Origin: Candidatus Bathyarchaeota archaeon
GTDB taxonomy: Archaea; Thermoproteota; Bathyarchaeia; Bathyarchaeales; Bathycorpusculaceae
Direction: 5' to 3'
Length of the DNA: 64,000 nt
NCBI GenBank assembly: GCA_963811105.1
Contig: CAWEPZ010000002.1
Span: 416,001 to 480,000 of the forward strand
In this document: positions 44,788 to 64,000 of the stretch, in pieces
Position numbering within the stretch: the stretch's first letter is position 1
Layout: each line of letters begins with the position of its first letter
Program-made: the position numbers and the translations under genes
Notes under the pieces: generated by a model
What the model was told of the DNA's origin: nothing
Databases searched by the model: none
The model's input: the letters and a program-made list of their open reading frames with translations, nothing else

Positions 44788-46902
44788 ATGTCTTTAACAC
44801 CAACATATCCGGGCGTTTATATCCAAGAACTCCCAAGTGGAGTCAGAACCATAACAGGCGTAAGTACCTCAATAACCGCCTTTATCGGAAGCGCAAAAAT
44901 GGGACCAACCGATAAAGCAACATTAATTCACAGTTTTGGAGAATTTGAATCAATTTTTGGAGGACTGTGGACTCAAAGCAAGATGAGTTATGCTGTTTAT
45001 CAATATTTTCTAAATGGAGGACAAGATGCTTTAATTATCAGAGTATTCCAAGAGAAGCTCATTGCTGTGCCGTCTGCGTCAACAACCACAGCGCTGCAAA
45101 TGCCATCAGGAATTTCAAGTATTGCAACATCAATTACGGTTGCATCTGACGCTGGATTTCCTTCAGCAACACCTTTCTACATCAACATAGGCAGCGAGAT
45201 CCTTAAAGTTACAAATGTTGGATCGCCCACTGTTGGATTGCCCAACACCAACTGGACTGTCCAGCGTGGTCAACTTGGCACAACTGCTGCTTCAGCCGTT
45301 GATGGTGCAACAGTAACTCTTGCCACGACAAGCAATAGTGAAGGAACTGCTACCTTCAGAGTAGAATTAGTCACGCCTTCACAAGATAATAACAGTGTAG
45401 CTGTAAACACACCGTTACTAGATAGTAACAACAAAAATGTCTACCTATATCTAATAGCTGCCTATCCTGGAGCATGGGGACAGAATATTGAATTCGAAAT
45501 AGATATCGGATCAGGAAATGTCGATGAAACCCTTCTTCGTTCGGACCCGAGTCTCTTTAGTTTAACAATTAAGTTGTATGACTCTTACACTCGGAAATAT
45601 CATTCCGGAAATTCGGGCAGTTTAGATACTCAACCAGGCAACTTGCTTCTAACCGAGAAATTCCAAAATTTATCTTTATCCGCTGGAAGCCCCAACTTCG
45701 CTGCAACGGTTTTGAAGCAGAGATCAAAGCTTCTCAGAGTACCCCAAGTTGATTCTAAAGTTGTTGGAAACGATATTCCTCCTTCCCCAACACAGCTTCC
45801 GCCTCCTGCATCACCCCCTTCTTCATTTGCGTATACCTTCCAAACAACGGATACAAACAAAAAAGCTGTGATCCAACTAGTTGGATACACAACCAATGAC
45901 GCGTCAACAATTGGTTCTTCCCTTGACTTAACGACAACACAAGCAACTGGCGATGACGGAGGCACATTGACCTCCTTGAACATTAACGGAAAGACACCTA
46001 AAACAGGCTTTCACGCTTTAGAGGATGCGGACATATTCAATCTTCTTTGTATCCCTCCGTACAATGATAACGAAAACTCGTACAACGGTGCCCTTTATAG
46101 CACAGTATATACAGCCGCCCAATCATATTGTGTTGATAGAAGAGCCATTCTTATTGTAGATCCCCCATCAGATTGGAATTCAAAAAGTGACGTTACTGAC
46201 TCGACCAAAGGCGTTGATGTACCATTGCTTACGCGCAATGCTAATGCCGCCATTTTCTTTCCCCGCATAACCATGGCAGATCCGCTCAATAATGGACAAT
46301 TAATGGAATATGTTCCATGTGGGGAAGTTGCGGGAGTTATCGCTTCAACCGATAGTACACGTGGCATTTGGAAGGCTCCAGCAGGCATCGAAGCAACCTT
46401 GAACGGTGTTTCGGATCTCACTATGAACGGCACTAAAGTGAGGCTGACTGACAAAGAAAATGGCGACTTGAACCCCTTAGGTGTAAATTGCTTAAGAATT
46501 ATGCCTGTTGTTGGACCTGTTGTTTGGGGTTCACGCACAATGAGAGGAGCCGATAGACTTGCCGATCAATGGAAGTATCTCCCAGTTAGACGAACTGCTC
46601 TTTATATCGAAGAGAGCTTATACAGGGGAATCCAATGGGTCGTGTTTGAGCCTAATGACGAGCCGCTTTGGTCGCAAATCCGCCTAAATGTCGGAGCATT
46701 CATGCACGGGCTGTTTATTAAGGGAGCTTTCCAAGGAAGTACGCCGAAGGATGCGTATTTTGTGAAGTGTGATTCGGAAACAACAACTCAAACTGACATC
46801 AACAATGGAATTGTAAATATTGTTGTGGGATTTGCGCCGCTAAAGCCTGCAGAGTTTGTTATACTTAAAATTCAGCAAATGGCTGGTCAGGAGGTATCTT
46901 AA
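44788..46902 (+). CDS. contractile injection system tail sheath protein (Afp2/3/4-like)
   Basis: TYPGVYIQE..TSITAFIG, GIWKAPAG, LNPLGVNCLR, WKYLPVRR, VFEPNDEPLW, GFAPLKPAEFV. Confidence 0.96.
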   Translation: MSLTPTYPGVYIQELPSGVRTITGVSTSITAFIGSAKMGPTDKATLIHSFGEFESIFGGLWTQSKMSYAVYQYFLNGGQDALIIRVFQEKLIAVPSASTTTALQMPSGISSIATSITVASDAGFPSATPFYINIGSEILKVTNVGSPTVGLPNTNWTVQRGQLGTTAASAVDGATVTLATTSNSEGTATFRVELVTPSQDNNSVAVNTPLLDSNNKNVYLYLIAAYPGAWGQNIEFEIDIGSGNVDETLLRSDPSLFSLTIKLYDSYTRKYHSGNSGSLDTQPGNLLLTEKFQNLSLSAGSPNFAATVLKQRSKLLRVPQVDSKVVGNDIPPSPTQLPPPASPPSSFAYTFQTTDTNKKAVIQLVGYTTNDASTIGSSLDLTTTQATGDDGGTLTSLNINGKTPKTGFHALEDADIFNLLCIPPYNDNENSYNGALYSTVYTAAQSYCVDRRAILIVDPPSDWNSKSDVTDSTKGVDVPLLTRNANAAIFFPRITMADPLNNGQLMEYVPCGEVAGVIASTDSTRGIWKAPAGIEATLNGVSDLTMNGTKVRLTDKENGDLNPLGVNCLRIMPVVGPVVWGSRTMRGADRLADQWKYLPVRRTALYIEESLYRGIQWVVFEPNDEPLWSQIRLNVGAFMHGLFIKGAFQGSTPKDAYFVKCDSETTTQTDINNGIVNIVVGFAPLKPAEFVILKIQQMAGQEVS

Positions 46903-47411
46903 TGCAGTTTTCTGTGAATACTGGTCGTTTTGATCCGTACAAGAATTTCAAGTTCAAAATAAAATGGGATGGTAAATACGTTGCGGGAATGAGCAAAATG
47001 ACTGCTCTTAAACGAACCACGGAGGTCGTTAAGCACAGGGAGGGGGGCGATCATAGTTCAAGTCGTAAGTCTCCTGGTAAAACTGAGTACGATGCGATTA
47101 CTCTTGAAAGAGGAGTTACTCATGATCCAGAGTTCGAAAACTGGGCTAGTAAGGTTTGGAATTACAGTGCAGGCGGCGGTTCTGAGGTTTCTTTGAAGGA
47201 TTTCCGCAAAGACATTATAATTGAGCTACTAAATGAAGCTGGACAGAAGGTAATCGCATACAAGGTTTATCGATGCTGGGTTTCTGAGTATCAACCGCTT
47301 CCTGATCTTGATGCCAACGCGAACGCAGTTGCTATTCAGCACATTAAGATCGAGAACGAAGGTTGGGAACGAGATACATCGGTAACTGAGCCGACAGAAC
47401 CGAGCTTATGA
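46902..47411 (+). CDS. tail tube protein (T4 gp19 / Afp1/5-like)
   Basis: DPYKNFKF, HREGG..KSPG..YDAITLERG, FRKDIIIELLNEAG, LDANANAVAI. Confidence 0.95.
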   Translation: MQFSVNTGRFDPYKNFKFKIKWDGKYVAGMSKMTALKRTTEVVKHREGGDHSSSRKSPGKTEYDAITLERGVTHDPEFENWASKVWNYSAGGGSEVSLKDFRKDIIIELLNEAGQKVIAYKVYRCWVSEYQPLPDLDANANAVAIQHIKIENEGWERDTSVTEPTEPSL

Positions 47412-47418
47412 TTAGAAG

Positions 47419-48264
47419 GTGGAGAATTCTAGTACGCGTCGAACAATTGTTGCCTTCATGCATGGGACATCATATAAAGGTAACTTATTGAAAAAAGCGG
47501 AGCTACGCGAAATTAATGGATACGACCAAGAACTGCTGCTCGAGAATACCTCGGTTTCAACTATCGTCCAAATGAAGTCTCTGCTTGCAAACACCGCTGA
47601 TTTTGGAAATCAAATCGAGCCAAGAGAAAAAGAAAACGTATTGGATAACTTGGCGATTGGCGATCTTGCTGTTCTAATTTTAGAGCTTCGAAAAATGACG
47701 TTTGGAGATACTTTGCAATGTATTATTAATTGTCCCTCATGTAAAGAAATTATGTCAGCTGATATTTCGCTCGCTCAACTCTTGCAAAAGCCAAATAACG
47801 CTGATCCTAAAAGTGTTTATGACGTGAAAGTCGCGGATTTTACTTTGAAGATGAGACCGATCACGGGGGTTGACCTAACTTCGGTAATTGGAAAAGATGA
47901 AACGGCTGCAATGGAACAATTGGTTACATCTTGTATTCTTGAGTCTATTCCAAGACTTCCAGAGAAGTTGGGCGATCAACTCTTAACGAAAATTAGCGTC
48001 AAGTTGAGTGAAATAGACCCAAAAGCCGATATTCTCTTAGATCTCACATGTCCTAGCTGTAACTATAGGTTCCAAGCTCCCTTTGTTCCGGAAGATTTCT
48101 TTTTACGCGAACTTGACGCAAGAAAATCTCAGTTTGAAGGAGAAGTACATTGGATTGCCTTCAATTATCATTGGAGCGAAGATGAAATTCTCTCCTTGCC
48201 CTTGAGCAAACGCAAAAAATACGTCGATTTAATTAACAGAACCCTTTCGGGAGAAAATGTGTAA
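47419..48264 (+). CDS. CIS assembly/baseplate-associated protein (gp26-like, CxxC pairs, DUF6760-like tail)
   Basis: LREING.D, IGDL..LILELRK.TFG, CPSC x2, EVHWIAFNYHWSEDEILSLP. Confidence 0.8.
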   Translation: MENSSTRRTIVAFMHGTSYKGNLLKKAELREINGYDQELLLENTSVSTIVQMKSLLANTADFGNQIEPREKENVLDNLAIGDLAVLILELRKMTFGDTLQCIINCPSCKEIMSADISLAQLLQKPNNADPKSVYDVKVADFTLKMRPITGVDLTSVIGKDETAAMEQLVTSCILESIPRLPEKLGDQLLTKISVKLSEIDPKADILLDLTCPSCNYRFQAPFVPEDFFLRELDARKSQFEGEVHWIAFNYHWSEDEILSLPLSKRKKYVDLINRTLSGENV

Positions 48265-49214
48265 TGGATCAATTCATGAACCACCTATTAACAAGAGCCA
48301 ACAAAAAAAAGAATGAACCCAACATAATGCCTATTTTTGCGCCTGAAATGATACCAGAAACTCTTAAGGTCCCTCAGCATATGTTAACAGATGCAAATCC
48401 GAGATCCAATGTTTCAAGCTTCGAGAACACTTTACCTCTTGAACAACGTCAAGCACAGGGTCAAGAACTATCTGATAAATCACAACACTCGTCCATTTCT
48501 GCAGTTCCATTTGAAAGCAAAAATGAACCCGAGATGTTAGTACCTCATGCTGAAAAGGTAGTTCACAACAACGTATCAACTGATTTTGAATCGACTCATG
48601 AGGCGCTTACTCTGCCTCAAACAAATCCCGAACAACAACAAACACGAGGTCAAGAATTATCCAATAAATCATTACAAACATCCATCCGGCCAATTCCGCT
48701 TGAAGTCGAAAATGAACTAACGACGTTGCCTGCTAGAGAAGAAAAAAGGACAGATAATAACGAAGTAACTAAAAACTTTGAGGCGAAAACCAAACAATCT
48801 ATTCTGCCCAAATCGCATGTTTCAATTAAAGGTGAATATCAAGAAGGATCTATTTCATCAAATAAGCAAGATTCTGAAAATGCAACTTCTATTCCAGAAA
48901 AAATTTTGAGAAACACAAAGGGTGAAGTCGCAAATCACATTAGACCTTTCATGCCTAATCACCTCGAGGAAGCTCAAATAAAACCTATCATACCATTAGG
49001 GGAAAAGATTGCGCCCTCGACAAAATACCAAAGTTCTAAAACAAAGGAAATGAAAAGTAGTTTAGCGGCTGAAAACCTTGAGCCAACAGTAACAATAAGC
49101 ATTGGAAGAATCGAGGTGCGAGCGATAATGCCTGAAAAAACACCTGAAAAAGAGGTTCGCCCTTCTTTATCTCTAGATGACTATCTAAGACAACGACGCG
49201 AGGGAACGCAATGA
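48264..49214 (+). CDS. low-complexity CIS accessory protein
   Basis: Disordered body with internal GQELS.KS repeat; C-terminus PTVTISIGRIEVRA...SLDDYL. Confidence 0.7.
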   Translation: MDQFMNHLLTRANKKKNEPNIMPIFAPEMIPETLKVPQHMLTDANPRSNVSSFENTLPLEQRQAQGQELSDKSQHSSISAVPFESKNEPEMLVPHAEKVVHNNVSTDFESTHEALTLPQTNPEQQQTRGQELSNKSLQTSIRPIPLEVENELTTLPAREEKRTDNNEVTKNFEAKTKQSILPKSHVSIKGEYQEGSISSNKQDSENATSIPEKILRNTKGEVANHIRPFMPNHLEEAQIKPIIPLGEKIAPSTKYQSSKTKEMKSSLAAENLEPTVTISIGRIEVRAIMPEKTPEKEVRPSLSLDDYLRQRREGTQ

Positions 49215-50515
49215 GCAATTATCTGGCCATCGCAACAGTTACCGAAGCTTTGATTCAGCTTCTTAATCCAGTAACTGGTGTGTCGAATACATTGATTGAT
49301 GCTGAACCGCCAGACATGGCTATTCCAAAAAATACCACAAATAGACTGAACATCTTTTTGTATCAGGTTACAGAGAATCAGGGTTACAAGAATTCAGATC
49401 TTCCTACAAGAAATACCGACGGTATATTGGTCAAAAGACCCCTGCTGGGTTTAGATTTACATTACATGATTACTGCTTTGGGAACTGATGATTTACACGC
49501 CCAAATTGTGTTGGCTTATGCTATGCAGATTCTTCATGAAACTCCCTATCTTACCCGCGAATTCATCAACAAAGCAGTTCAATTGGCGCCGACGACCTTG
49601 GGAGAATCTGACCTGGCCAATCAAGTTGAAATGATAAAAATCACCCATCAGAACATGTCGCTTGAAGAAATAAGCAAACTTTGGTCATCTTTTTTCCAGA
49701 CAAACTACAGGCTTTCAACGACCTATCAGGTTACAGTTGTATTGCTTGAAAGCAAAATGGAAACCAAGCCAACTTTGCCGGTTCTAATACCTCAAGTAAC
49801 TACAGTGCAATTGAAACAGCCCATCATACAGCAAGTGCAACCACAGATTCTGGAGTACAATCCTAGCGACCCAACAGTACTCACTCTTATAGGCTTAAAT
49901 TTCCAAGCAGACGATGTGACAGTTCAAATTGGAAATGAAAAACCAGTTCCAACTACCAGTAATTCCGACACAGAAATCAAAATTACAATCCCAACTAGTG
50001 TAACTCCTGGGGTAAAGACTGTCCAGGTCATTCAAAGATCAGATTTGCCGATTGGCTCTTCGACCTCTTCGGCGATTGTGCAGCAGGTTCCACATAACAT
50101 GTTCAAATCAAACGTTGCCGCTTTTGTTTTGGCGCCGAAAATTACCAACGTCAATGGCAATAATATCAGTAGCACAAACGCGATACCAGTAGTACACAAC
50201 CCTGATCCAAAGTCGAGTGTCCCAGATTTGACACTAATATTTGCACCCTTTATCAATCCGTCTCAACAAGTCTCCTTTCTAGTAGGTGATTTCGAATTAC
50301 TGATTCCTCAACAAACTTCAACAAACCCCATAAATTCACTCGCCATAAACCTCTCTAGTTATCCTCAGATGCTCCAGTCGATAACCAATTTTTCAGGCAA
50401 AAAATATTTGCTAAGAATCAGGGTTGACGGAGCAGAAAGCTTGCTTACTGTTGATACAGATAAGTCCTCGCCAACTTATGGGCAATTCATTGCCCCGGTA
50501 ATTTCGGTGACATAA
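49211..50515 (+). CDS. DUF4255 (Afp16/Pvc16 cap/terminator) with IPT/TIG-like extension
   Basis: MSNYLAIATVT, LNIFLYQVTEN, LDLHYMITA, LEEISKLWS, YQVTVVL; C-terminal LRIRVDGAES. Confidence 0.92.
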   Translation: MSNYLAIATVTEALIQLLNPVTGVSNTLIDAEPPDMAIPKNTTNRLNIFLYQVTENQGYKNSDLPTRNTDGILVKRPLLGLDLHYMITALGTDDLHAQIVLAYAMQILHETPYLTREFINKAVQLAPTTLGESDLANQVEMIKITHQNMSLEEISKLWSSFFQTNYRLSTTYQVTVVLLESKMETKPTLPVLIPQVTTVQLKQPIIQQVQPQILEYNPSDPTVLTLIGLNFQADDVTVQIGNEKPVPTTSNSDTEIKITIPTSVTPGVKTVQVIQRSDLPIGSSTSSAIVQQVPHNMFKSNVAAFVLAPKITNVNGNNISSTNAIPVVHNPDPKSSVPDLTLIFAPFINPSQQVSFLVGDFELLIPQQTSTNPINSLAINLSSYPQMLQSITNFSGKKYLLRIRVDGAESLLTVDTDKSSPTYGQFIAPVISVT

Positions 50516-52462: not shown

Positions 52463-52722
52463 AGACGAAAATCGAAATAGGTACGCTTGTCCTTGAGGGT
52501 TTCGACTATCATGATCATTTGCGGATAAGCGGCGCTTTAGAAAAAGAATTGGTAAGGATAGTAAGTAAGAATGGAATATCTGAAAAGCGACCTAACCTAC
52601 AAGCGAAGTCCGCATTGTTAATGCCTTTATCTTTCACCGCACCATTAGACATGAACCCAAGTAAAATAGGCTCTGAAATCGCTAGATGCATCTACGCCGG
52701 AATGAAATTGTGGACAAATTAG
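52459..52722 (+). CDS. small CIS-associated protein
   Basis: IEIGTLVLEGF..ALEKEL..IGSEIARCIY; coupled to the ATPase stop codon. Confidence 0.7.
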   Translation: MKTKIEIGTLVLEGFDYHDHLRISGALEKELVRIVSKNGISEKRPNLQAKSALLMPLSFTAPLDMNPSKIGSEIARCIYAGMKLWTN

Positions 52723-53071: not shown

Positions 53072-53578
53072 CTTTTTGGAAAGAGAAGCGAAATGAAAGA
53101 TAGCCATGATCGTTACGCAAACATAGAAGTTAGCTATCTTCTCCAAAGAGTGGAAAACTACAGCGGGCTAGCAATACTTTCCCACCAACATGAAGAAAGC
53201 TTTAGATCCAGCTTTCACTAGGCAAATCAGATTCATTGTAGAGTTTCCCTTCCCAGAACAAAAAGCCGCGAGGAAATATGGAAACACGTTTTTCCATCAA
53301 ATGCGCCCATCACAGATCTCAACTTAAAATGCTTTTCGAACCCTAACCTCAAAGGCGGACACGTATATGACATCGCTTTGTACGCGGCGTTCTTAATACC
53401 CCATGAAAAACATACCTGTAAACATGAAACACTTAGAGAGGGCAGCGCGGGTTGAATACAAAAGATTGGAACGAACCCTAATTTGGTCAGAGCTGGAAGG
53501 CTGTAAGACGAAGATCAAAGTCCACATTGGAACCCTCATCCTTGAAGGATTTGATTATCAAGGCAACCTACGATAGGG
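53072..53578 (+). pseudogene. degraded duplicate of the ATPase 3' end and the small gene 5' end (copy of about 52022-52530)
   Basis: LFGKRSEMKDSHDRYANIEVSYLLQR, frameshifts, then KIKVHIGTLILEGFDY. Confidence 0.9.
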
Positions 53579-58300: not shown

Positions 58301-58421
58301 CGTTTGTGAGGTTTGTCTTGGGCTCGCTTTGTTTTGTCATGAAAAATGTATGGTGAGCTCTCATTGTTGATTTATCTGCAACTTTTTTTTGTACAGGTTC
58401 AAAACTCATTTCTTGTTCCAA
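55338..58421 (-). CDS. candidate CIS effector: DUF4157 + 2x LysM + zinc metallo-phospholipase C-like domain
   Basis: QPGDIYEQEADRVAE; SGQPLDAATRAFMEPRFGHDFGQVRVH..LLAHELAHVLQQ; LysM HVVARGE..AIAAKYDV..LLARN; YGEVITMGDFF, FADHFLTDAFASGH, HD.LN..GV.V.NARG..W...GDG. Confidence 0.85.
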   Translation of the reverse strand: MEQEMSFEPVQKKVADKSTMRAHHTFFMTKQSEPKTNLTNENNNPGVNLRFGNFPIYPAAENNSFSKDATATCPLKTTPHACPQKIQKKLVINQPGDIYEQEADRVAEVVMTERRMPSWSISNIMLGTVQRQTPGGWPGDQPAPNPNNYEEAAKKTGGAFLETLMETEFWKKLTDAVNQDPLVNSAESFIDTLPGKVSMGALAVGVVSALAATHTDLPAQIPDIPLDSIWPGLSVKITYEGAVDHPTKAAITFSYSPKGEKKTDSKRYRAETARIAAEQEKFRAGMKYKPGSAEDIQQKQEQEAIESYTLNSFGALPGTDGHPLIPTYPVPKDEPHTGLRLPTFESPFQPKTIRLLDQQLELQPLTSSNAPSETEEKEETTPLQRKAESGLKPVDGAVAPSIVDEVLQSSGQPLDAATRAFMEPRFGHDFGQVRVHTDAKAAESARAINAQAYSVGQNVVFGTGQHAPQSSVGQRLLAHELAHVLQQSAPKTIIGQVLGYVKEPKQLRSVHQLSGGYLVQRYSTYEHAILGEVEGLIGPELIPYFVEPETHVVARGEMPQAIAAKYDVPLEFLLARNASLIRGWETPLGEKIYGFNAGERVVIPGDTIVYLASKFGVSEESIADSNSKSVGAWKVPRTNKIIKGFDRGVKVIIPTGKLAVSGENREDTGKNEPTKAQIVKVNGVDLTYGEVITMGDFFRTPLDMLKADPGKLIELRDLIRKQRANHSSVGTEDWQKATGGEYLKLAESNVGHFSPSNPSILASSTGNSGENNKTTWEEYHSQALDAAQLGDKNKALALNGFADHFLTDAFASGHMFNKQDVMNKLKQALSDSEALENFFDEVAKAAWADTKVSDLLSQYETVEWKGVIFRPNIDSPSRFSKLLQGIYKSKEGQPTLLNSAALIVHDNLNKNGVLVENARGDKWQVTGDGYLSKETMKIAKLAVAQSQVNILNAVNSKGALNKAVLMKRVWDYVPAPTALGEDFMKKTILQLTDPKQRATIAAAADIIKGQIPTIVEELVKRHILKKA

Positions 58422-58486
58422 TTAATAATCTGCTTTTTAAGGAATTAAAAGCTTGTCCCGATAGTCTAAAACATAAATTAAAGTAA

Positions 58487-59764
58487 CTGACTGTTTGCAT
58501 TTTCACGTTATTTCGTGTTTATGATTCACAGTATGCTTTTGTTTGTTAGTTTTGTGTTTCTTATTTTGAGTATGAAAAGGTGCATGGCTTTTCTCCTTAC
58601 CCACTCAACGTGGCCTCGATAGAGGGAAGACTCTTCACAACAGGATACCTAAGAAGCCTACGCCTTAAAACGTCAAGGAGAATACAGGCCAAGGCGACTA
58701 GGTGCGCGTGTATGAGCGCCGCTTCGCTCTCCCTAAACCTGTATTCCCCAAAGCCTAAGGCTTTAGCCTCCTTATAGAAGCATTCTGTTCTATGCCTCTC
58801 TAACGCATGCCCCAAAATCACCTCAACACAACAACCCATCAGATCAGTACACAGAAAATGAACATCCTTAGTGCCTGCCTTAACGTTCATCACGATGGAG
58901 AAATAACCCATCTTAGGCATGAAAACATCAGCCTTAAAGGCAGAATAAACCTCGCCCTTCACCACCACATTAAAGAAACCACCCTCTGAACGAACCTTAT
59001 CAAAGAGCTCGTTTAAACGGTACCTTTTATCCTCGTAAAACACGATTCTGTTGCTCTTAATCTCGCCTACCCAACTATATGCGTGAGATCTGCATTTTGA
59101 CGCCATCTCCTGGCAGGTGAACCAGGAATCCCACAGTCAAATCGTCTTCTTCACCAATGGAGTGTGCTCATCGAGGATGTCGCATGCTAACTGCAGCCTC
59201 GTTTTAAACTCGATTCCTTTCTCTTGGCACTTCTTCTGGTTGCCACACAGCTTCAAGCCGTCCGGCACAGCAACTGAGTTGTTTACATAGAGGGATGTGA
59301 CGTATTCGTGGCTTAGCACTGTTCCCATAGTTGAGGAATGATTGTAACCGACCATCTCGGTGCTTTTGCTATACTTGGTATACGGTGTCGTCGATGATTT
59401 TGTACTCAAATGAGCTGTCTATATTTGATTCGCTAAGAAGCATGGTTTTGGCTTGGTTAGTTATTACTTTGCTGTCCCATTTTGGGTCGGTTACGAATCG
59501 GTGAAGGGTGCTTTGGTCTTTTTTGTCAATGAAGAGCTCGTTGATGCTTTTGATGTCGTGTTCTCCTTTGCTGGCGACTATGAGTCCTAGTTTTCTTCTG
59601 CAGAAGTTCTCGAACTGAGGCTTGCTGAAGATGGGCTTGAACTTTGAAAAAAGGTGTTTCAATCGACGGGGAATGCCTGCAATAAATCCGAACATGCAAT
59701 TATGTATGTGTCGATGAAAAAATAAGCTTTGAACACAGAACGACGAAAAAACGCAAACACTCAG
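58487..59764 (-). mobile_element. IS701-family insertion sequence, transposase frameshifted
   Basis: DQSTLHRFV..WD, IIDDT, DSWFT, R...E.FYKEAK.LG..EYR; TIRs CTGACTGTTTGCATTTT / AAAACGCAAACACTCAG; flanks GTAA / GCAA. Confidence 0.85.
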
Positions 59765-59885
59765 GCAATATATGTTGAAGGATTTCAGTTTTATAACCTC
59801 CGATATCTACTGAAACAACAGGGACCATTTGTTTAATGAATAGTTCTAGTGATCGGTGTGCTAATCTAATTGGATCGATTATGTT

Positions 59886-60380
59886 TTAAATTACTTCTAG
59901 AGCTCCGTCATTTATTGAAACGCTGGCAGGAGTTAACTTTACTTTGGCTGAACCGTTGCTAAGTTCTATTCCTGTTATGTCCATGACGATTTTCAGTCCA
60001 GAGGTGGTTTCAACTGTGACGCCTCCTATGCCTGGTAAGTCGCTTAAAGTTATTGTTGCAGTATCTGTCTTTATCACTTTAATGTCGGGAATCGCGGGTG
60101 TCTTAGGGGCTTCTCCTAAGGCCCAAAAACCGCCTGACCAGATGGGGTGTTCAAGTTCTCCTCCTTCAAATTCGATCCAGATGTTTGCGTCCACCGGTGG
60201 TATGAAGAAGAATCCAACACCGTTTCCGGCATATGGCGAACATGGTAAGGCCCAGCCTGTTTCTTCGTCTTCTAGAACGGCTGGAACTTTAGCTCGGATT
60301 CGTCCAAGCATTAATGGATCTGTGTTCTCTGACACTGTTCCTCTGTATTTTCCCAGAAACAGCTTTTTTTCTCCGCTCAT
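59886..60380 (-). CDS. spike protein, gp5/VgrG OB-fold (baseplate assembly protein V)
   Basis: GKYRGTV..NTDP..LGRIRAKVP, WALPC.PYAG, IPPV..NIWIEFEGG...PIWSG. Confidence 0.93.
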   Translation of the reverse strand: MSGEKKLFLGKYRGTVSENTDPLMLGRIRAKVPAVLEDEETGWALPCSPYAGNGVGFFFIPPVDANIWIEFEGGELEHPIWSGGFWALGEAPKTPAIPDIKVIKTDTATITLSDLPGIGGVTVETTSGLKIVMDITGIELSNGSAKVKLTPASVSINDGALEVI

Positions 60381-61516
60381 GTGGGCACCACCGGCGATAT
60401 TGAGCCGAGTCCTTCACGCGTTAGATTGAAGCTTTGCTTATATTCTCCAATTTTTATTTTGTGAGTTACATTTTTGACATAGTAAATCCCATCATAAGAA
60501 TTGCCAATTCCTCTTACGCCAACCAGCCTGCGAGCGCGAAGCACGTCTCCATAAGCAACCGAGTCAATTTCTCCACTCGCACTAACCGCATCAATCGAAT
60601 TATCTGTCTCTGACTGAGCTTTTGAATAAGCCTCCAATGTGTTGAGGCCGTTACCACTAAAATGCTTTTTCCGAACGTTCGGTTGATTCACTAGCCATGC
60701 CGGTTTAAGAGTTAAGGGGATACGAAGGCTGCCCAACGTTTGCACCGGAACTGTTTTGTCCAGAGTTCTGTCATCAACTTTTCCTTTTACAAAATAAGGT
60801 TTGAGTGAATTATATTGAAAGTTGATTGATGTTACGTTCGTTTGAGCGCCCAAATTAGCTGAAAGCGCTGATTGCGGAGGATTTTGCACATTAATTTTAG
60901 GTCCCCAATAGGCTTTGTTAATTCCAGGTACGTCAGTTGGCTCGATATAGAAGCAGTAGCTGTTTTCAGTTGCAAGTTGCTGCACGTACGAAAGATCTGT
61001 TGCTTGCTGAGTAGGCGTATAATCCACGGAAATTGGTACAGACATTGATAATGGCGGAATTACATTTGGCATTAAACCATATTGCGCATATGACAGAATT
61101 ATTTTGTTGACTATTGCCAAGTCTGGCATATTATCGTTTTTATGAATTTTTTCCTCCATATCCATCATCACGCTAATATCTTCGCCAGTTACCACAAAAG
61201 TTGACTTGCCAGGGTCTTGACTAGGGTTAAACTGATGATGAGTAATCATGCCATCAATAAGGACCCTTGGAGTTAAGCCTATTGTGACCATAAGAATTAC
61301 TCGATTGAACGGTGTCAACAAAGGATTGCTAATCAAAGGATCATCAAAAATACCGGTTGGCCCACCTCGTCCCGCTGTGAAGGTTATCTGGAAACCATCT
61401 CGACCTTGGTCTGTATTGGTTATTTCTATCGATTGAATCGCTTGAGTCAATGTGAACGGTACAGGTACGGGAATTGTGGGTCCAATTAGCATGGTGAGGT
61501 GAATTCCAAAACTCAA
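60377..61516 (-). CDS. baseplate hub protein (gp27 / late-control D-like)
   Basis: VLIDG.IT, VTGEDISVMMD, TDLSYV..LA, YGDVLRARRLVGVRG.G.SYDG.YYVK.VTH. Confidence 0.85.
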   Translation of the reverse strand: MSFGIHLTMLIGPTIPVPVPFTLTQAIQSIEITNTDQGRDGFQITFTAGRGGPTGIFDDPLISNPLLTPFNRVILMVTIGLTPRVLIDGMITHHQFNPSQDPGKSTFVVTGEDISVMMDMEEKIHKNDNMPDLAIVNKIILSYAQYGLMPNVIPPLSMSVPISVDYTPTQQATDLSYVQQLATENSYCFYIEPTDVPGINKAYWGPKINVQNPPQSALSANLGAQTNVTSINFQYNSLKPYFVKGKVDDRTLDKTVPVQTLGSLRIPLTLKPAWLVNQPNVRKKHFSGNGLNTLEAYSKAQSETDNSIDAVSASGEIDSVAYGDVLRARRLVGVRGIGNSYDGIYYVKNVTHKIKIGEYKQSFNLTREGLGSISPVVPT

Positions 61517-61520: not shown

Positions 61521-61808
61521 TCACCGCCCTGGGAGCGGTATAAAAAGCAATTTACCCGGTTCCTTAGTTAAATCCAAAGGATACATTCCGTTGTTCTTGT
61601 CACAAACTCTCCAGAACTGTTCAGGCACACCAAGAGTTCTTGACGTGACTAAATCAATTCTATCTTGAGCCATAACAGTGGTTTGTATAAGTGTAGGCAT
61701 GTTCTCACCTTGAGGAAGAAAACGGCGTTTCTTATACGTAATTATGTTTACGTCTTTTTGGATTGTATCGTTTTCTATGTTTGAATATCGGCTAGTTTGG
61801 TCAAACAT
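61521..61808 (-). CDS. small LysM-like baseplate protein
   Basis: MF..TSRY, YKKRRFLP, DRIDL...LG.PEQFWRVCD.N. Confidence 0.85.
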   Translation of the reverse strand: MFDQTSRYSNIENDTIQKDVNIITYKKRRFLPQGENMPTLIQTTVMAQDRIDLVTSRTLGVPEQFWRVCDKNNGMYPLDLTKEPGKLLFIPLPGR

Positions 61809-61821: not shown

Positions 61822-62481
61822 TCAGAAGAGTTTAGCGTTTCCAGATATCATAGAACCCAGATTAGATGCACTTCCAATTGCGGACATAGCTTCCTTTGCA
61901 ACTTGATGAGCAAGAAAAATTGCGTAACCTGGATGGCTCATCTCCAAATCATCGTAAGTTAGAACCCGCAACCCCAACGAAACCTTAGCTCTAATTGGAT
62001 TCAAACTCGAATCGTACGCTTCCTCCGTCACACGGTAATCGGTTATTCGAACTGGCAAGATACGTTTTAGCCCCCAAATAAAAAGTGTAAAAGGTCCCTC
62101 AGGCGGAGTAACTTCAATTGTGCCCAACGCTGCAAGAACAAAGTTCGCTATGACCAGTGCAGATTTTGGATAAAGTATCATCTCAAAAGCCGCAAGCTGA
62201 GGCAAGATTCCTAGATTCTTGGTTATTGCATTTTGATCGGGATGCTCAAGTTGATCTGTAGCGTCCAATTCAACATCGAGACTTATCGTTTCGATTGGTG
62301 CCCCCTTTAGCCTAAAGGCCTCAGATTTCCCTGCTCCTTCACTGCCCGATTGTGGTTTTAAGGTTCGAGTGAGAGTGTCTGGATTGTATTGAAAGACAAT
62401 AATTTGGGGAATCGGGAAAGAAACATCTACCGAAACTATCGCTCCCTTAACAACGCGTGGAGATCCCGGAAAAGTCGACAT
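61822..62481 (-). CDS. CIS tube initiator protein (Afp7-like N-domain)
   Basis: FQYNPDTLTRTL, ELDATD, LFIWG..RILPVRIT...TEEAYD..LNPIRAKV; start MSTFPGSP at 62481 with AGGAG RBS. Confidence 0.88.
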   Translation of the reverse strand: MSTFPGSPRVVKGAIVSVDVSFPIPQIIVFQYNPDTLTRTLKPQSGSEGAGKSEAFRLKGAPIETISLDVELDATDQLEHPDQNAITKNLGILPQLAAFEMILYPKSALVIANFVLAALGTIEVTPPEGPFTLFIWGLKRILPVRITDYRVTEEAYDSSLNPIRAKVSLGLRVLTYDDLEMSHPGYAIFLAHQVAKEAMSAIGSASNLGSMISGNAKLF

Positions 62482-62691
62482 AATTCTCCTATAGACAATA
62501 TTAACTCTTCCTGTATAAAAAAGTAAGTATGAAGCAAAACGTCTTGGTGTCCGTTGAATATTCATTTCGAGAAAACGTGTCCGACTTATAAATCGTATTG
62601 GTCGCCTGCAAAATAGTATCGCAAGATATTAATATCAAGACAAAGAAACTAGATTAGTCGATTTCTATGGGTTTGCAAGTAAATCAGAATT

Positions 62692-62717
62692 TTGACCTGC
62701 CTATTAACCCAGGTCAA
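62692..62717. promoter_or_regulatory. palindrome in the divergent CIS intergenic region
   Basis: TTGACCTG-N10-CAGGTCAA perfect 8-bp inverted repeat. Confidence 0.4.
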
Positions 62718-62820
62718 GCTGTCATTATTATGAGCAAATTATCATTCGATCTCGTCCAGATATTGGATCTTGAAATAGATTGGCGAACATTTAGCAGAAA
62801 AGTTGTTAGAGGATAGGTAT

Positions 62821-63153
62821 ATGCCCGGTTTTCTTCTACACGTGGGAATTGTCGGAATGTGCCCGCATGGTGGGCAGCTGTCCGAGATTACCTCTAATAT
62901 GAGGGTATCCGTTAGCAATCAGAAAGTAGTAACTGTGAATGATACTTTTCTAATTGCTGGGTGCATTCTTAGCATGTCAACACCGCCTAATCCATGTGTC
63001 AACGTCAAATGGGTTGTTCCCGCAACGCGGGTCTTTGTTACTGGTCAGCCTGTTCTCTTGAGCGACAGTGTTGGACTCTGTCAAGCTGCAACTCAAGCTC
63101 CTCAAGGTCCTCCAAACATCGTGAGCACACAACTTAGAGTAAAAGGAATGTAG
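62821..63153 (+). CDS. PAAR-like spike tip protein (DUF4280-like)
   Basis: CPHGG, IAGC, PC..V.W..PATRV...GQPVLL..S.GLC, Q.RVKG. Confidence 0.88.
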   Translation: MPGFLLHVGIVGMCPHGGQLSEITSNMRVSVSNQKVVTVNDTFLIAGCILSMSTPPNPCVNVKWVVPATRVFVTGQPVLLSDSVGLCQAATQAPQGPPNIVSTQLRVKGM

Positions 63154-63159
63154 TGGACT

Positions 63160-63516
63160 ATGCAGTACAATTATCCTTATCAAATTGATAATAATGGTCG
63201 CACAGCAATAGTTGGAGACAATGATCACATTAAGCAAATGATTGAACAAGTGCTCTTTACTTCTCCAGGAGAAAGAGTAAATCGCCCAACTTTTGGTACA
63301 GGATTAAATCAATTGGTTTTTGCTCCTCTTAGCGACGAAATTATTGCCACCGTGCAGTTACTGGTTCAAGGTGCACTACAACAATGGTTAGGGGATCTAA
63401 TTATTATTCAATCTGTTGATGTTTCAAGCGAAGAATCAACTCTGCAAGTTCAGGTTGTGTATACTAACAGACAAACTCAGCAGCAGCAAACTGCACAATT
63501 CACAAGAGGCATATAA
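63160..63516 (+). CDS. GPW/gp25 baseplate wedge / sheath initiator
   Basis: HIKQMIEQVLFTSPGERVNRPTFG.GL..LVF.P. Confidence 0.93.
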   Translation: MQYNYPYQIDNNGRTAIVGDNDHIKQMIEQVLFTSPGERVNRPTFGTGLNQLVFAPLSDEIIATVQLLVQGALQQWLGDLIIIQSVDVSSEESTLQVQVVYTNRQTQQQQTAQFTRGI

Positions 63517-64000
63517 TGAGCAACCAACTAAAATGCGCAAGTCAAAAAAGAGCCATTCAAGTAAATAATAGCACTCTTAATGGCATCGATTACTTGGAAG
63601 TCGTTCCGCCTGCAAACGTTGGCGATCTCCCATTATTGCTGGTTTTTTGTTTTAAATCACTTAAGACTGACGATTATCAGAAGAATGTTCTCATAGAAGG
63701 AGGTGTTCGCATAAGAAACATTGGCGTCGTATGGGCAAAACGCTATCCTTCTACAAACGTAAAGTTAGACGGCACAGAAAACAAAAATATCTCAGACGTA
63801 ATAGGAAATTATCCTCAACAGAACGTTCTTGTGATTCGGCCAACAAGTAATGGAGATTTCTCAAATTATACACTTCGATTAGTAGAATCACCAGATTCAA
63901 CTTTGCCTCTTTCTGATTTTGACTCTGTCCTATCGAGTGTGAGATTCAACTTTAGAGTTGAATGTCCATCCGACATCGACTGTAACGCAAAGACGGTTTG
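63516..64000 (+). CDS. baseplate assembly protein (Afp11/gpJ-like), 3'-partial, not in ORF track
   Basis: ATG overlaps the gp25 stop; LNGIDYLEV, IEGGVRI, GDFSNYTLRLV, FD..LS...FNFRVECPSDIDC. Confidence 0.88.
   Translation, partial: MSNQLKCASQKRAIQVNNSTLNGIDYLEVVPPANVGDLPLLLVFCFKSLKTDDYQKNVLIEGGVRIRNIGVVWAKRYPSTNVKLDGTENKNISDVIGNYPQQNVLVIRPTSNGDFSNYTLRLVESPDSTLPLSDFDSVLSSVRFNFRVECPSDIDCNAKTV

What the first reader, a model, noticed from the sequence alone, without database searches (positions are those of the whole stretch)
44788..64000. Contractile injection system (eCIS) locus in a probable Bathyarchaeia genome
Seen: sheath, tube, assembly protein, DUF4255 cap, AAA+ ATPase, DUF4157 protein, tube initiator, LysM, hub, gp5-OB, PAAR, gp25 and baseplate, with no capsid, portal or terminase among them. 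Established: DUF4255 + AAA ATPase + gp19 tube + DUF4157 define Afp/PVC/MAC-type eCIS. Archaeal CIS are reported mainly from methanogens and haloarchaea. Inference: this is a CIS in a TACK-lineage archaeon, where I know of no characterised example. The structural ORFs are intact while the ISs and pseudogenes fall between them, which suggests it is still under selection.
Basis: partly seen in the sequence, partly recalled or inferred. Interest (0 to 1): 0.9.

Follow-up and report, generated by a model that had tools for sequence, protein, structure and literature searches.

The report
Contractile injection system in a Bathyarchaeia genome
An uncultured soil-type archaeon of the class Bathyarchaeia carries a complete, head-less phage-tail "syringe" with two likely cargo proteins; this is a known kind of machine in a host group where none has been described.

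Summary
Window 44788-64000 is the first 19 kb of a 32.3-kb contractile injection system (CIS) locus that runs 13 kb past the window edge. It encodes sheath, gp19 tube, Pvc16/DUF4255 cap, AAA+ ATPase, tube initiator, hub, gp5-OB spike, PAAR-like protein, gp25, two baseplate-J proteins, a DUF6519 tail fibre and two DUF4157 proteins. All ORFs are intact. An IS701-like element, an IS5 fragment and an ATPase pseudogene lie between genes. No head or packaging gene is on the 667-kb contig, which also carries an archaeal 16S gene.

The host is Bathyarchaeia: it shares a genus with a MAG titled Candidatus Bathycorpusculum, and its EF-2 is 87-95% identical to 'Bathyarchaeia archaeon' proteins.

The cap gene was found in 12 of 40 congeners and 5 of 12 genomes of one sister genus. 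It was found in 0 of 297 other Bathyarchaeia and 0 of 375 other phylum members sampled. The sheath falls in a supported clade with Nitrososphaeria and Thermoproteota sheaths.

The two DUF4157 proteins mirror the AlgoCIS cargo pair Cgo1/Cgo2. One ends in a LysM plus phospholipase-C/P1-nuclease-like domain.

Verdict: a new member of a known kind, of moderate interest. The scan had eCIS notes for methanogens, none for Bathyarchaeia.

The parts
44788..46902 (+). Contractile sheath, 704 aa, carrying an extra insert of about 130 aa (residues ~89-219) compared with ~520-aa relatives
   Evidence: Pfam sheath_1C and sheath_1. 5441 homologues at E<=1e-5. Best solved relative is the Streptomyces CIS sheath 8bky, 3.7e-64. 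Insert inferred from the split matches.
46902..47411 (+). Inner tube protein (gp19 type), 169 aa
   Evidence: Phage_T4_gp19 1.4e-45. TIGR02241 2.4e-44, above its cut-off. Up to 81% identical to bacterial homologues.
47419..48264 (+). gp51-like/DUF6760 protein, 281 aa; putative assembly factor
   Evidence: T4_baseplate 1e-10. phrog_150 'baseplate hub' 1.1e-9. Found in the same position in 73 of 80 bacterial loci. Role is inferred.
48264..49214 (+). Low-complexity 316-aa protein with an internal ~65-aa repeat; putative tail-length (tape-measure) protein
   Evidence: No family hit. Only the C-terminal ~80 aa are conserved, in 2 of 80 loci. Sequence seen. The assignment rests on position only and is inferred.
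49211..50515 (+). Tail terminator/cap (Pvc16_N = DUF4255) with a TIG/Ig domain, 434 aa
   Evidence: Pvc16_N 5e-43 and TIG 3.5e-5. Aligns over residues 1-434 with bacterial homologues.
50516..52462 (+). Afp15/Pvc15-type AAA+ ATPase with an N-terminal winged-helix domain, 648 aa
   Evidence: AAA 7.2e-28 and WHD 6.7e-15. Full-length alignment at 47-49% identity with bacterial eCIS ATPases.
52459..52722 (+). 87-aa ORF whose start overlaps the ATPase stop codon (ATGA); function unknown
   Evidence: Its 5' end is also present in the degenerate duplicate at 53072-53560. No homologue in the 82 loci compared.
53072..53560 (+). Pseudogene remnant: a degenerate copy of the ATPase 3' end plus the orf87 5' end
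   Evidence: 79% nucleotide identity to 52022-52511. Two frames with stop codons.
54035..54734 (-). IS5-family transposase fragment (broken)
   Evidence: NF033579 8.2e-7, below its cut-off, partial coverage. Overlapping out-of-frame ORFs.
55338..58421 (-). Putative cargo A, about 1023 aa (probable start at Met5, 58409). Domains: N-terminal leader, DUF4157 (HExxH), LysM, then a 350-aa C-terminal phospholipase-C/P1-nuclease-like domain.
   Evidence: eCIS_core 3.8e-31 and LysM 1e-6. The leader is 72% identical over 116 aa to cargo B. C-terminal domain: AF2 pLDDT 92; VIA top 6 are all PLC or S1-P1 nucleases, Z 6.4-4.8; Foldseek top 11 are all PLC, E 0.012-0.09.
58410..58458 (-). Conserved A/T-rich promoter-like element directly upstream of cargo A; the same element precedes cargo B
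   Evidence: Alignment of the two upstream regions. Inverted repeat 58099-58458 / 75725-75339 at 78% identity. Promoter function is inferred.
58450..59880 (-). IS701-like element inserted between the spike and cargo A genes; transposase broken into three ORFs
   Evidence: NF033540 and NF049999 partial hits. An 81%-identical copy lies on contig C11 and a fragment at window 16006-16100.
59886..60380 (-). Spike (gp5/VgrG OB-fold), 164 aa
   Evidence: Phage_base_V 7.4e-26. 55-60% identical over its full length to homologues.
60377..61516 (-). Baseplate hub (gp27/gpD position), 379 aa
   Evidence: No Pfam hit. Weak NCBIfam VgrG_rel hit, 3.6e-4. Full-length homologues in canonical position in 23 of 80 loci.
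61521..61808 (-).
   Evidence: No family hit. Conserved in position in 25 of 80 loci and in congener G018.
61822..62565 (-). Tube initiator (CIS_tube), probable true start at Met29 (62481)
   Evidence: CIS_tube 7.2e-5, below its cut-off. Homologues align from residue ~26-29 onward at up to 67% identity.
62803..63153 (+). PAAR-like spike tip protein, probable start at 62821
   Evidence: DUF4280 E 0.02, sub-threshold. Conserved between spike and gp25 in 13 of 80 loci. Inferred.
63160..63516 (+). gp25-like baseplate wedge/sheath initiator, 118 aa
   Evidence: GPW_gp25 5.3e-16.
63516..64000 (+). 5' part of the first baseplate-J (Afp11-like) gene, 923 aa in full. The locus continues off-window (L001 coordinate + 62000): second baseplate-J 1008 aa (L001 4284-7310), 693-aa baseplate/tail protein (7307-9388), DUF6519 tail fibre 1062 aa (9398-12586), 112-aa ORF (12625-12963), and cargo B, a 562-aa DUF4157 protein (13388-15076).
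   Evidence: TIGR02243 scores 250.8 and 201.6 bits, both above the cut-off. DUF6519 6.2e-56. eCIS_core 1.8e-32.

Best explanation
This is a complete, chromosomally encoded contractile injection system of the Afp/PVC (eCIS) superfamily, closest to the widespread 'lineage II' type. It lies in a Bathyarchaeia genome related to Candidatus Bathycorpusculum.

Inferred from homology with solved systems: the hub, spike and PAAR-like tip, together with gp25, two baseplate-J proteins and a 693-aa protein, form a baseplate. This baseplate carries DUF6519-anchored fibres. The tube initiator seeds a gp19 tube, which is wrapped by the sheath and closed by the Pvc16-type cap. The AAA+ ATPase assists assembly or cargo loading. 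When the fibres bind a target, the baseplate rearranges, the sheath contracts and the tube with its spike is driven into the target.

The two DUF4157 proteins share an N-terminal leader and differ in their C-terminal domains. They are most likely the cargo carried in the tube lumen, as shown for AlgoCIS Cgo1/Cgo2. One ends in LysM plus a metal-dependent phospholipase-C/P1-nuclease-like hydrolase domain. The other ends in a second HExxH zinc-protease-like domain.

I take the particle to be released and to act on neighbouring cells, most likely bacteria. That last step is the least certain.

The three gene modules have been reshuffled, and the locus has been invaded by ISs, without breaking any structural gene.
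For: Gene set and integrity. All eCIS core families are present. Every structural protein aligns end to end with homologues. The canonical bacterial order is sheath-tube-gp51like-cap-ATPase-DUF4157-initiator-95-hub-spike-PAAR-gp25-J-J. It is reproduced here as three modules, and divergent or permuted module orders also occur in bacteria (L059, L003) and in congeners G007 and G018.

Not a phage. No head genes are on C2, and housekeeping genes lie on both sides.

Resident in this archaeon. 16S and the locus are on one 667-kb contig. Locus GC is 0.423 against 0.413 for the genome. The inserted IS701-like element has an 81%-identical copy on contig C11. Orthologous pieces occur in two congeners. 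The sheath lies in a starred clade (SH-aLRT 99) with Bathycorpusculum, Thaumarchaeota, Thermoproteota and Nitrososphaera evergladensis sheaths, apart from 79 bacterial rows.

Cargo. The two DUF4157 proteins share 72% identity over a 116-aa leader and 44% over the DUF4157 domain, with unrelated C-termini. This matches the architecture described for the experimentally shown lumen cargo Cgo1/Cgo2 (PMC8894135, passages). The C-terminal domain family is fused to eCIS_core in 25 of 40 homologues scanned and to LysM in 15 of 40.

Fibre. DUF6519 is the eBAP5 baseplate-attachment domain of eCIS fibres (PMC12923769, passages). No multi-TM anchor protein is in the locus.
Against: There are no expression or particle data; no RNA run was found. 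An IS sits between the spike and cargo A genes and may be polar. The tube-initiator module is inverted relative to the canonical order. Three remnants (an ATPase/orf87 copy, a spike 3' piece, and the duplicated DUF4157 5' end) show that the locus has been recombining.

The closest solved sheath belongs to the Streptomyces CIS, which acts inside the cell. The only characterised archaeal CIS is membrane-anchored and T6SS-like (PMC11566945). An extracellular mode is therefore not the default for relatives.

Only one tube gene was found, with no separate Afp5-like adaptor. The phospholipase-C-like assignment rests on middling scores: Z 6.4, Foldseek E 0.012, and Pfam 14.1 bits against a 26.8-bit cut-off. 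How a particle would leave an archaeal cell is unknown.
Confidence: 0.55

Rival explanations
1. The machine is functional but is not released. It works from inside the cell in one of two ways. It could be anchored to the membrane and fire into a touching neighbour (T6SS-like, as in haloarchaea). Or it could fire within the producer as a stress or cell-death device (as in Streptomyces and Anabaena).
For: The closest solved sheaths are 8bky and 8bl4 (E 3.7e-64 and 1.7e-61). These are the models of the cytoplasmic Streptomyces CIS, subtype IId (PMC10066040). The haloarchaeal CIS works as a T6SS (PMC11566945). In the sheath tree the archaeal clade sits next to an actinomycete clade, but with weak support (78). 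No lysis genes were recognised in the locus.
Against: No multi-TM anchor protein lies in or beside the locus (simple hydropathy scan). The haloarchaeal T6SS mode correlates with such a protein. A 1062-aa fibre with the eBAP5 domain and Ig-like repeats is present, as in released eCIS. An anchor encoded elsewhere in the genome was not searched for.
Confidence: 0.3
2. The locus is a decaying relic. Rearrangement and IS invasion have already silenced it, and the intact ORFs only reflect recent inactivation.
For: An IS701-like insertion, an IS5 fragment, an ATPase pseudogene copy, a spike remnant and an inverted module all lie within 32 kb. The cap family was not found in 28 of 40 congeners, so the system is dispensable.
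Against: None of the 17 structural or assembly ORFs, nor either cargo ORF, has a stop or frameshift across about 27 kb of coding sequence, and all match homologues over their full length. All IS and pseudogene material is intergenic. Cargo A keeps the same 45-nt promoter-like element as cargo B just inside the IS boundary. Divergent module orders exist in apparently intact bacterial loci.
Confidence: 0.12
3. It is not the archaeon's own CIS. It is either the tail of a myovirus-type provirus, or bacterial DNA misassembled or misbinned into an archaeal MAG.
For: Seventy-nine of the best 80 species-representative genomes with related sheaths are bacterial by title. The tube is up to 81% identical to bacterial tubes. 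IMG/VR lists related fragments as viral. The bin does contain TerL, capsid and portal-like hits on small contigs.
Against: The locus lies inside a 667-kb contig. On one side is a deoxyhypusine synthase gene that is 78-88% identical to congeners' copies. On the other side, 112 kb away, is the archaeal 16S gene. GC matches the genome, and the locus shares an IS family with contig C11. Cap, ATPase and DUF4157 are eCIS markers and not phage genes (PMC8213781). The longer IMG/VR relatives themselves carry cap plus ATPase (L118, L121, L122, L127). The head-gene hits are all on other contigs.
Confidence: 0.03

Closest known systems
Lineage II eCIS loci of bacteria (dbeCIS/eCIStem classification), in particular the Streptomyces CIS-Sc type (subtype IId)
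   Same: Same gene families, and in the bacterial relatives the same canonical order. The closest solved sheath is CIS-Sc, 8bky/8bl4. Afp6/12/13/14-type genes are divergent or unrecognisable, as reported for lineage II (PMC6899500).
   Different: The host is an archaeon of the Thermoproteota. The genes lie in three modules on alternating strands with IS insertions. The sheath carries an extra ~130-aa insert. The fibre is of the DUF6519/eBAP5 type. Subtype was not assigned against dbeCIS reference sequences, which were not available here.
AlgoCIS of Algoriphagus machipongonensis and its cargo pair Cgo1/Cgo2
   Same: Both have two DUF4157 proteins with a similar N-terminal region, a central DUF4157 domain and different C-terminal domains. 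In both, one of the pair has two HExxH motifs (second motif HELGH seen and supported). In AlgoCIS these proteins fill the tube lumen and are lost on contraction (PMC8894135, passages).
   Different: The AlgoCIS sheath is a distant relative (7adz, 2e-30). Here the two cargo genes lie 17 kb apart on opposite strands. One cargo is about 1020 aa and ends in LysM plus a phospholipase-C/P1-nuclease-like domain. Loading has not been shown.
Haloarchaeal CIS (Halogeometricum borinquense; archaeal T6SS, clade IIa)
   Same: It is the only characterised archaeal CIS. It is also split into subclusters, is spread horizontally, and has bacterial nearest relatives (PMC11566945, passages).
   Different: It comes from a different archaeal phylum and a different clade. 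It depends on a conserved six-TM anchor protein, and no counterpart was seen in this locus.
Afp (Serratia entomophila) and PVC (Photorhabdus), lineage I eCIS
   Same: Shared sheath, tube, cap, ATPase, gp25, baseplate-J and spike families. Pvc2 matches at 1.4e-41 and Afp3 at 5.4e-39.
   Different: There is a single sheath gene, not three. There is no Afp13-type fibre. The cargo is DUF4157-tagged. The gene order differs.

Membership tests
eCIS superfamily (Afp/PVC-like contractile injection systems) | Contractile sheath plus gp19-type tube | tested here: met
   Phage_sheath_1C 9.5e-11 and Phage_T4_gp19 1.4e-45, both above their cut-offs. PDB matches to CIS sheaths.
eCIS superfamily (Afp/PVC-like contractile injection systems) | Pvc16/Afp16-type cap (DUF4255) and Afp15-type AAA+ ATPase in the locus | tested here: met
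   Pvc16_N 147.4 bits (cut-off 27). AAA 98.1 bits (cut-off 21.2).
eCIS superfamily (Afp/PVC-like contractile injection systems) | Afp8-like spike and Afp11-like baseplate-J, the pair that co-occurs in 98.7% of eCIS loci (PMC8213781) | tested here: met
   Phage_base_V 90.7 bits. TIGR02243 250.8 and 201.6 bits, cut-off 155.8. The hub portion is a separate gene that matches no Pfam family and only weakly an NCBIfam VgrG-related model.
eCIS superfamily (Afp/PVC-like contractile injection systems) | DUF4157 (eCIS_core) protein(s) | tested here: met
   Two genes, 107.5 and 111.8 bits, cut-off 22.
eCIS superfamily (Afp/PVC-like contractile injection systems) | No capsid, portal or terminase linked to the tail genes | tested here: met
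   None among the ORFs of window 38-64 kb or of L001. Genome-wide hits lie only on contigs C6, C7, C12 and C15.
eCIS superfamily (Afp/PVC-like contractile injection systems) | Particle is released and acts extracellularly | not testable with these tools
   This needs microscopy or biochemistry. An eBAP5 fibre is present and no TM anchor was seen, but the nearest characterised relatives act inside the cell.
eCIS subtype IId (Streptomyces type) | Placement with IId references in an Afp11 or sheath phylogeny | tested here: inconclusive
   The closest solved sheath is CIS-Sc. In the sheath tree the archaeal clade joins an actinomycete clade with support of only 78. No dbeCIS reference set was available.
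Class Bathyarchaeia (host assignment) | Marker genes and genome kinship place the genome in Bathyarchaeia | tested here: met
   Three of the 4 organism-named EF-2 hits are 'Candidatus Bathyarchaeia archaeon' at 87-95% identity; the fourth is a partial protein with a bacterial label. A same-genus genome, G018, holds a contig identical to a record titled Candidatus Bathycorpusculum sp. (lineage). 16S is 90% identical over nt 1-320 and 97% over the last 71 nt to fragments in that genome. mcrA was not found.
Zinc-dependent phospholipase C / S1-P1 nuclease superfamily (C-terminal domain of cargo A) | Sequence match to the family model at its curated threshold | tested here: not met
   Zn_dep_PLPC E 0.045, 14.1 bits against a 26.8-bit cut-off. 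A PDB profile search found nothing.
Zinc-dependent phospholipase C / S1-P1 nuclease superfamily (C-terminal domain of cargo A) | Shared fold and conserved metal-ligand residues | tested here: inconclusive
   The model has pLDDT 92. The VIA top 6 of 48161 chains all belong to this superfamily, Z 6.4-4.8, with unrelated helical proteins at Z 4.5 or less. The Foldseek top 11 are all PLC but with E >= 0.012. His/Asp columns H113, H165, D169, H175, H266 and D289 are invariant in 39 sequences. That H-x3-D-x5-H is the PLC zinc motif is recalled, not tested.

The most novel reading that the evidence does not exclude
The locus represents an eCIS lineage that circulates among soil Thermoproteota. Bathycorpusculum-like Bathyarchaeia and Nitrososphaeria share one sheath clade. 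Bathyarchaeia would use it as a released weapon against bacteria, delivering a LysM-tagged phospholipase-C/nuclease-like enzyme and a zinc protease. That would be the first injection weapon of a TACK archaeon and the first case of archaeon-to-bacterium injection.
Probability: 0.2. Interest if true: 0.7.

Novelty: new member of a known kind. Interest (0 to 1): 0.42.

Why it matters
Bathyarchaeia are abundant, almost entirely uncultured archaea, and their interactions with other cells are unknown. An intact injection machine with identifiable cargo is a concrete, testable handle on how they compete or interact. It recurred in about a third of the sampled species of one genus and was not found in the rest of the class sampled.

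The result also extends the host range of the eCIS superfamily to a second archaeal lineage beyond methanogens and haloarchaea. It hints at exchange of these loci among soil Thermoproteota.

The C-terminal domain of cargo A belongs to a large family without a Pfam model (926 representative clusters). Most members are fused to the eCIS cargo tag. This family is a candidate new effector family for eCIS biology in general.

Tried and rejected
Methanogen or ammonia-oxidiser host: no mcrA. No archaeal amoA either, but that family rang in no control genome, so the blank is weak.

Expression: the look-up of sequencing runs listed no RNA holder and one DNA run with a 0.06 share of words. I did not lay reads on it. 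This says nothing about expression or habitat.

Literature: Makarova et al. 2019, cited for archaeal CIS, is not held. I could not check what it says about Bathyarchaeota or Thaumarchaeota loci. Supplements of the eCIS catalogues, which list the archaeal loci, are closed.

Mosaic origin of the baseplate module: the hub tree does not pair G000 with congener G018. The AU test does not reject that pairing (p 0.398), so I make no claim. The ATPase tree placed G000 on a long branch with no supported set.

Island boundaries: synteny with congeners G017 and G524 covers only deoxyhypusine synthase plus tRNA-Gln. It breaks on both sides, including right after the tRNA. No integrase was seen. 'Island at tRNA-Gln' remains a hint only.

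PDB sequence searches: none for the cap and none for the cargo A C-terminal profile.

The deoxyhypusine synthase comparison with the Bathycorpusculum genome gave only 32% identity. The genome has three paralogues, so this was not used for taxonomy.

One literature search was badly framed, with min_terms 2, and gave nothing usable.

Full report
THE LOCUS

The window is C2:416001-480000 of a 3.49-Mb, 15-contig genome estimated 96.65% complete with 4.3% contamination. From 44788 onward the + strand carries module A. It comprises:
- sheath (704 aa)
- gp19 tube
- a gp51-like/DUF6760 protein
- a 316-aa low-complexity protein
- a Pvc16_N (=DUF4255) cap with a TIG domain
- an AAA+ ATPase
- a translationally coupled 87-aa ORF

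.

After 2.6 kb of debris, the minus strand carries module B. Read in the direction of transcription it runs tube initiator, a 95-aa protein, hub, gp5-OB spike, an IS701-like element, then a ~1023-aa DUF4157-LysM protein.

Module C starts head to head with the tube initiator. It holds the PAAR-like protein, gp25 and the start of a baseplate-J gene at the window edge.

I fetched the next 18 kb (L001). There the locus continues with:
- two intact TIGR02243/Baseplate_J genes (923 and 1008 aa)
- a 693-aa gene with weak tail-protein hits
- a 1062-aa DUF6519 protein
- a 112-aa ORF
- a second DUF4157 protein (562 aa)

An alpha-amylase and unrelated genes follow. The locus is therefore 32.3 kb, from 44788 to window-equivalent 77076. 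DUF6519 is the 'eBAP5' baseplate-attachment domain of eCIS tail fibres (PMC12923769, passages read).

INTEGRITY AND THE MATERIAL BETWEEN GENES

Every structural protein aligns over its whole length with homologues from other genomes. The only adjustments are later start codons for the tube initiator (Met29), the PAAR-like gene (Met7) and cargo A (Met5).

The inter-module debris has three components. The first is a degenerate copy of the ATPase 3' end plus the orf87 5' end at 53072-53560, 79% identical at the nucleotide level, with stops and a frame change. The second is an IS5-family transposase fragment. The third is an unexplained 138-aa ORF.

The IS701-like element at 58450-59880 has its transposase in three broken ORFs. 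An 81%-identical copy lies on contig C11.

Two further repeats point to past recombination with a second, ~20% diverged eCIS copy. The 5' ends of the two DUF4157 genes form a 78% inverted repeat. An 80% copy of the spike 3' end lies just past the end of the locus.

GENE ORDER COMPARED WITH RELATIVES

I compared 80 species-representative genomes with related sheaths, each with 10-kb flanks. The recurrent order, all on one strand, is sheath-tube-gp51like-(316)-cap-ATPase-DUF4157-initiator-95-hub-spike-PAAR-gp25-J-J.

Counts of loci with a hit fall with distance from the sheath, because the flanks end:

| Gene | Loci with a hit, of 80 |
|---|---|
| tube | 78 |
| gp51-like | 73 |
| ATPase | 62 |
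| cap | 61 |
| DUF4157 | 46 |
| tube initiator | 31 |
| hub | 23 |
| spike | 18 |
| PAAR-like | 13 |
| gp25 | 11 |

Permuted orders exist among apparently intact bacterial loci. A Trueperaceae locus has modules B+C divergent from A. A Hormoscilla locus has C before A, with homologues of the 693-aa protein and the DUF6519 fibre.

The two congeners with orthologous pieces also differ from each other. G018 has B-DUF4157-A. G007 has C-A. Module shuffling is thus a property of the family, not in itself a sign of decay.

NOT A PROPHAGE TAIL

No ORF in window 38-64 kb or in L001 hits a capsid, portal or terminase family. Searching the whole genome gave:
- TerL_ATPase on contigs C6 and C7
- Phage_capsid on C15
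- a sub-threshold portal hit on C12

Nothing was found on C2. IMG/VR does list related sheaths, 162 relatives. The four longer loci with 43-53% sheath identity (L118, L121, L122, L127) carry cap and ATPase genes. They are eCIS fragments filed as viral.

THE HOST

- An archaeal SSU rRNA gene (1489 bits) lies on the same contig, 112 kb beyond the locus.
- A deoxyhypusine synthase gene and tRNA-Gln lie 7-8 kb upstream.
- mcrA was not found.
- EF-2 from contig C3 has 120 listed relatives at 83-96% identity. Only four carry organism names. Three are 'Candidatus Bathyarchaeia archaeon' (95, 94 and 87%). One is a partial protein labelled as a bacterium.
- The ESM Atlas lists Bathyarchaeota as the commonest phylum of the nearest archaeal EF-2 clusters.

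The most direct evidence comes from genome kinship. The only archaeal locus among the 80 best sheath relatives is titled Candidatus Bathycorpusculum sp. (lineage Bathyarchaeia, Bathycorpusculaceae). It is letter-identical to a contig of genome G018. The genome search classes G018 as the same genus as the window's genome. The two genomes' 16S fragments are 90% identical over nt 1-320 and 97% over the last 71 nt.

Chimerism is unlikely. The locus GC is 0.423 against 0.413 for the genome. The locus shares an IS family with contig C11. It is flanked by archaeal genes on both sides.

DISTRIBUTION

I searched for the eCIS-specific cap family PF14065.

| Sample | Other genomes with a hit | Where the hits lie |
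|---|---|---|
| Own family | 8 of 200 | genus g1 4/10, genus g45 4/10, 0 in the 68 other genera |
| Class | 17 of 400 | all in the own family: g1 12/40, g45 5/12; 0 of 297 in other families |
| Phylum | 4 of 400 | all in g1; 0 of 375 outside the own family |

These are samples, and the draws overlap. The family rang in none of the 14 named control genomes, so the only positive control is the window's own gene (1.2e-43).

Cap lengths fall into three groups: about 410-444 aa as here, about 200-250 aa, and about 300-325 aa. This suggests more than one eCIS variant in the genus.

With the sheath as query, 9 of 24 congeners and 0 of 16 genomes from other families of the order matched. Only G007 and G018 are orthologues.

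PHYLOGENY

The sheath tree has 92 rows:
- the window
- the 80 genome loci
- G007
- ten database proteins I chose by hand from the 120 listed: the top four, the five with organism names, and one fn3-bearing protein

The other 110 listed proteins were left out.

An 11-row clade has SH-aLRT support of 99. It holds:
- the window with four unnamed metagenome proteins (up to 76% identity)
- the Bathycorpusculum and G007 sheaths
- one unnamed protein
- the three proteins named Thaumarchaeota archaeon, Thermoproteota archaeon and Candidatus Nitrososphaera evergladensis SR1

The 79 bacterial rows and the two bacterial-named database proteins fall outside it. This points to a Thermoproteota-associated sheath lineage. 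It rests on one gene, on a quick search, and on my selection of rows.

The hub tree does not pair the window with G018, but an AU test does not reject that pairing (p 0.398).

THE TWO DUF4157 PROTEINS

They share 72% identity over the first 116 residues and 44% over the DUF4157 domain with its HExxH motif. Nothing else is shared. Both genes are preceded by the same ~45-nt A/T-rich element. For cargo A, that element lies just inside the IS boundary.

[quoted passage not shown] Those proteins fill the tube lumen and are lost on contraction, and Cgo1 has two HExxH motifs (PMC8894135, passages read). Geller et al. report DUF4157 as an eCIS core domain that sits N-terminal to toxin domains (PMC8213781, passages).

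Cargo B has a second HExxH motif (HELGH) in its C-terminal part. Its nearest Atlas clusters are 'Zinc protease family protein' and hypothetical proteins that partly carry eCIS_core (scores 0.92-0.94, a lead only).

THE C-TERMINAL DOMAIN OF CARGO A

The last 388 residues match 926 representative clusters at E <= 1e-3, 217 of them at <= 1e-30. No Pfam family covers them. Among the 40 top full-length homologues I scanned:

| Domains found | Count, of 40 |
|---|---|
| eCIS_core | 25 |
| LysM | 15 |
| Amidase_3 | 1 |
| Peptidase_C70 plus phage lysozyme | 1 |
| nothing | 11 |

. A 39-sequence alignment has invariant W95, N110, H113, H165, D169, H175, H266 and D289, in fragment numbering.

AlphaFold2 gives a confident, mostly helical model (pLDDT 92.1, pTM 0.88). 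Foldseek finds nothing at E <= 1e-3. Its first 11 rows are all zinc-dependent phospholipases C (E 0.012-0.09, TM 0.15-0.27). The independent VIA search of 48161 chains puts six members of the phospholipase-C/S1-P1-nuclease superfamily on top:
- 1ah7: Z 6.4, rmsd 4.2 over 139 residues
- 1olp: Z 6.2
- 8cqm: Z 6.2
- 8qjl: Z 5.5
- 5fb9: Z 4.8
- 3w52: Z 4.8

Unrelated helical proteins score Z 4.5 or less. Pfam gives a sub-threshold Zn_dep_PLPC hit across H165-D169-H175 (E 0.045).

These are three weak but concordant signals. I put about 60% on a metal-dependent hydrolase of this superfamily, and I cannot separate lipase from nuclease. LysM and the cell-wall hydrolase fusions in relatives suggest bacterial (peptidoglycan) targets. 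Because the architecture is shared with bacterial loci, it need not be an adaptation of this host.

MODE OF ACTION

The locus has a long eBAP5 fibre. A simple hydropathy scan found no multi-TM protein. This favours a released particle. Against that, the nearest solved sheath is the cytoplasmic Streptomyces CIS, subtype IId. The only characterised archaeal CIS works as a membrane-anchored T6SS. No lysis or release genes were recognised. I therefore give the extracellular reading 0.55 and a cell-bound or intracellular mode 0.30.

WHAT IS KNOWN

In the held library:
- 'Bathyarchaeia' + 'contractile' returns one unrelated paper.
- 'Bathyarchaeota' + 'contractile injection system' + 'archaea' returns three.
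- 'Bathyarchae' + 'phage tail-like' returns two.
- 'Nitrososphaera' + 'tail sheath' returns two.

Of these papers I read passages of two. PMC9230969 notes sheath homologues in Bathyarchaeota (a different, 321-aa sheath), Thaumarchaeota (the 521-aa N. evergladensis protein), Asgard and other MAGs, and warns that they need verification; it describes no locus. PMC10547907 mentions a CIS-like assembly protein only within a prophage-region table. The other papers I saw only as search listings, and none has a title on such a locus.

Geller et al. found eCIS in one archaeal phylum among isolate genomes. Chen et al. found 10 archaeal loci among 302 complete archaeal genomes. Which loci those are is in supplements I could not open.

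Makarova et al. 2019, cited for archaeal CIS in several phyla, is not held. It may already list Thermoproteota loci.

VERDICT

This is a well-preserved member of a known machine family in a new host class. Three observations add to it: the patchy within-genus distribution, a Thermoproteota sheath clade, and an unnamed effector-domain family. It is new as a member, not as a kind.

Noticed in passing
G000 contig C11:862888-864444 (locus L105 12888-14444): A second, lone sheath gene (518 aa, Pfam sheath_1 + 1C, 29-42% identical to the locus sheath) sits among housekeeping genes with no other tail gene nearby. Homologues (50-60% identical to it in the three congeners compared) explain the weak sheath hits in 7 of 24 congeners. 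In G013 the homologue is a 382-aa sheath followed by a 150-aa tube gene, set among PQQ beta-propeller proteins, and PQQ proteins also lie near the G000 copy.
   Followed up: partly
window 53072-53560; 58099-58458 with window-equivalent 75339-75725; 59888-60002 with window-equivalent 78080-78194: Three repeats at 78-80% nucleotide identity: ATPase 3' end plus orf87 5' end, the DUF4157 5' ends, and the spike 3' end. They look like leftovers of a second, ~20% diverged eCIS copy that recombined with the resident one.
   Followed up: partly
window 55341-56504 (minus strand), C-terminal domain of the 1027-aa protein: This ~350-aa domain belongs to a large family (926 representative clusters at E<=1e-3) with no Pfam model. 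It is mostly fused to DUF4157 and LysM, and sometimes to peptidoglycan amidase or lysozyme. It is a candidate undescribed eCIS effector family.
   Followed up: partly
G000 contigs C6:26156-26461, C7:9597-9902, C15:10514-11068, C12:28342-28983: Terminase (two near-identical hits on two small contigs), capsid and portal-like hits lie on small contigs of the bin. They may be proviruses or co-binned virus contigs, and are unrelated to the CIS locus.
   Followed up: no
window 38658-41695: Two adjacent PKD-domain surface-protein genes contain 90-96% identical internal DNA repeats (39228-40487). They lie between tRNA-Gln and the CIS locus. Similarity to two congeners ends right after the tRNA gene (37780), a hint of a variable island.
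   Followed up: partly
window 36409-37431 and G000 C11:1433729-1435745: The genome has three deoxyhypusine-synthase-like genes. The window copy is only 31-32% identical to the two on C11, and one of those appears in two pieces.
   Followed up: no
window 25343-31383: A 1382-aa hybrid histidine kinase with a receiver domain and about six PAS domains lies next to a 7TM-PAS histidine kinase. This is unusually rich sensory equipment for a Bathyarchaeia genome, and this genome is the largest among the congeners listed (3.49 Mb against 1.2-3.2 Mb).
   Followed up: no
IMG/VR loci L118, L121, L122, L127: Contigs filed as viral in IMG/VR carry sheath, tube, cap, AAA ATPase and in part DUF4157 genes. They are eCIS fragments rather than viruses.
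   Followed up: partly
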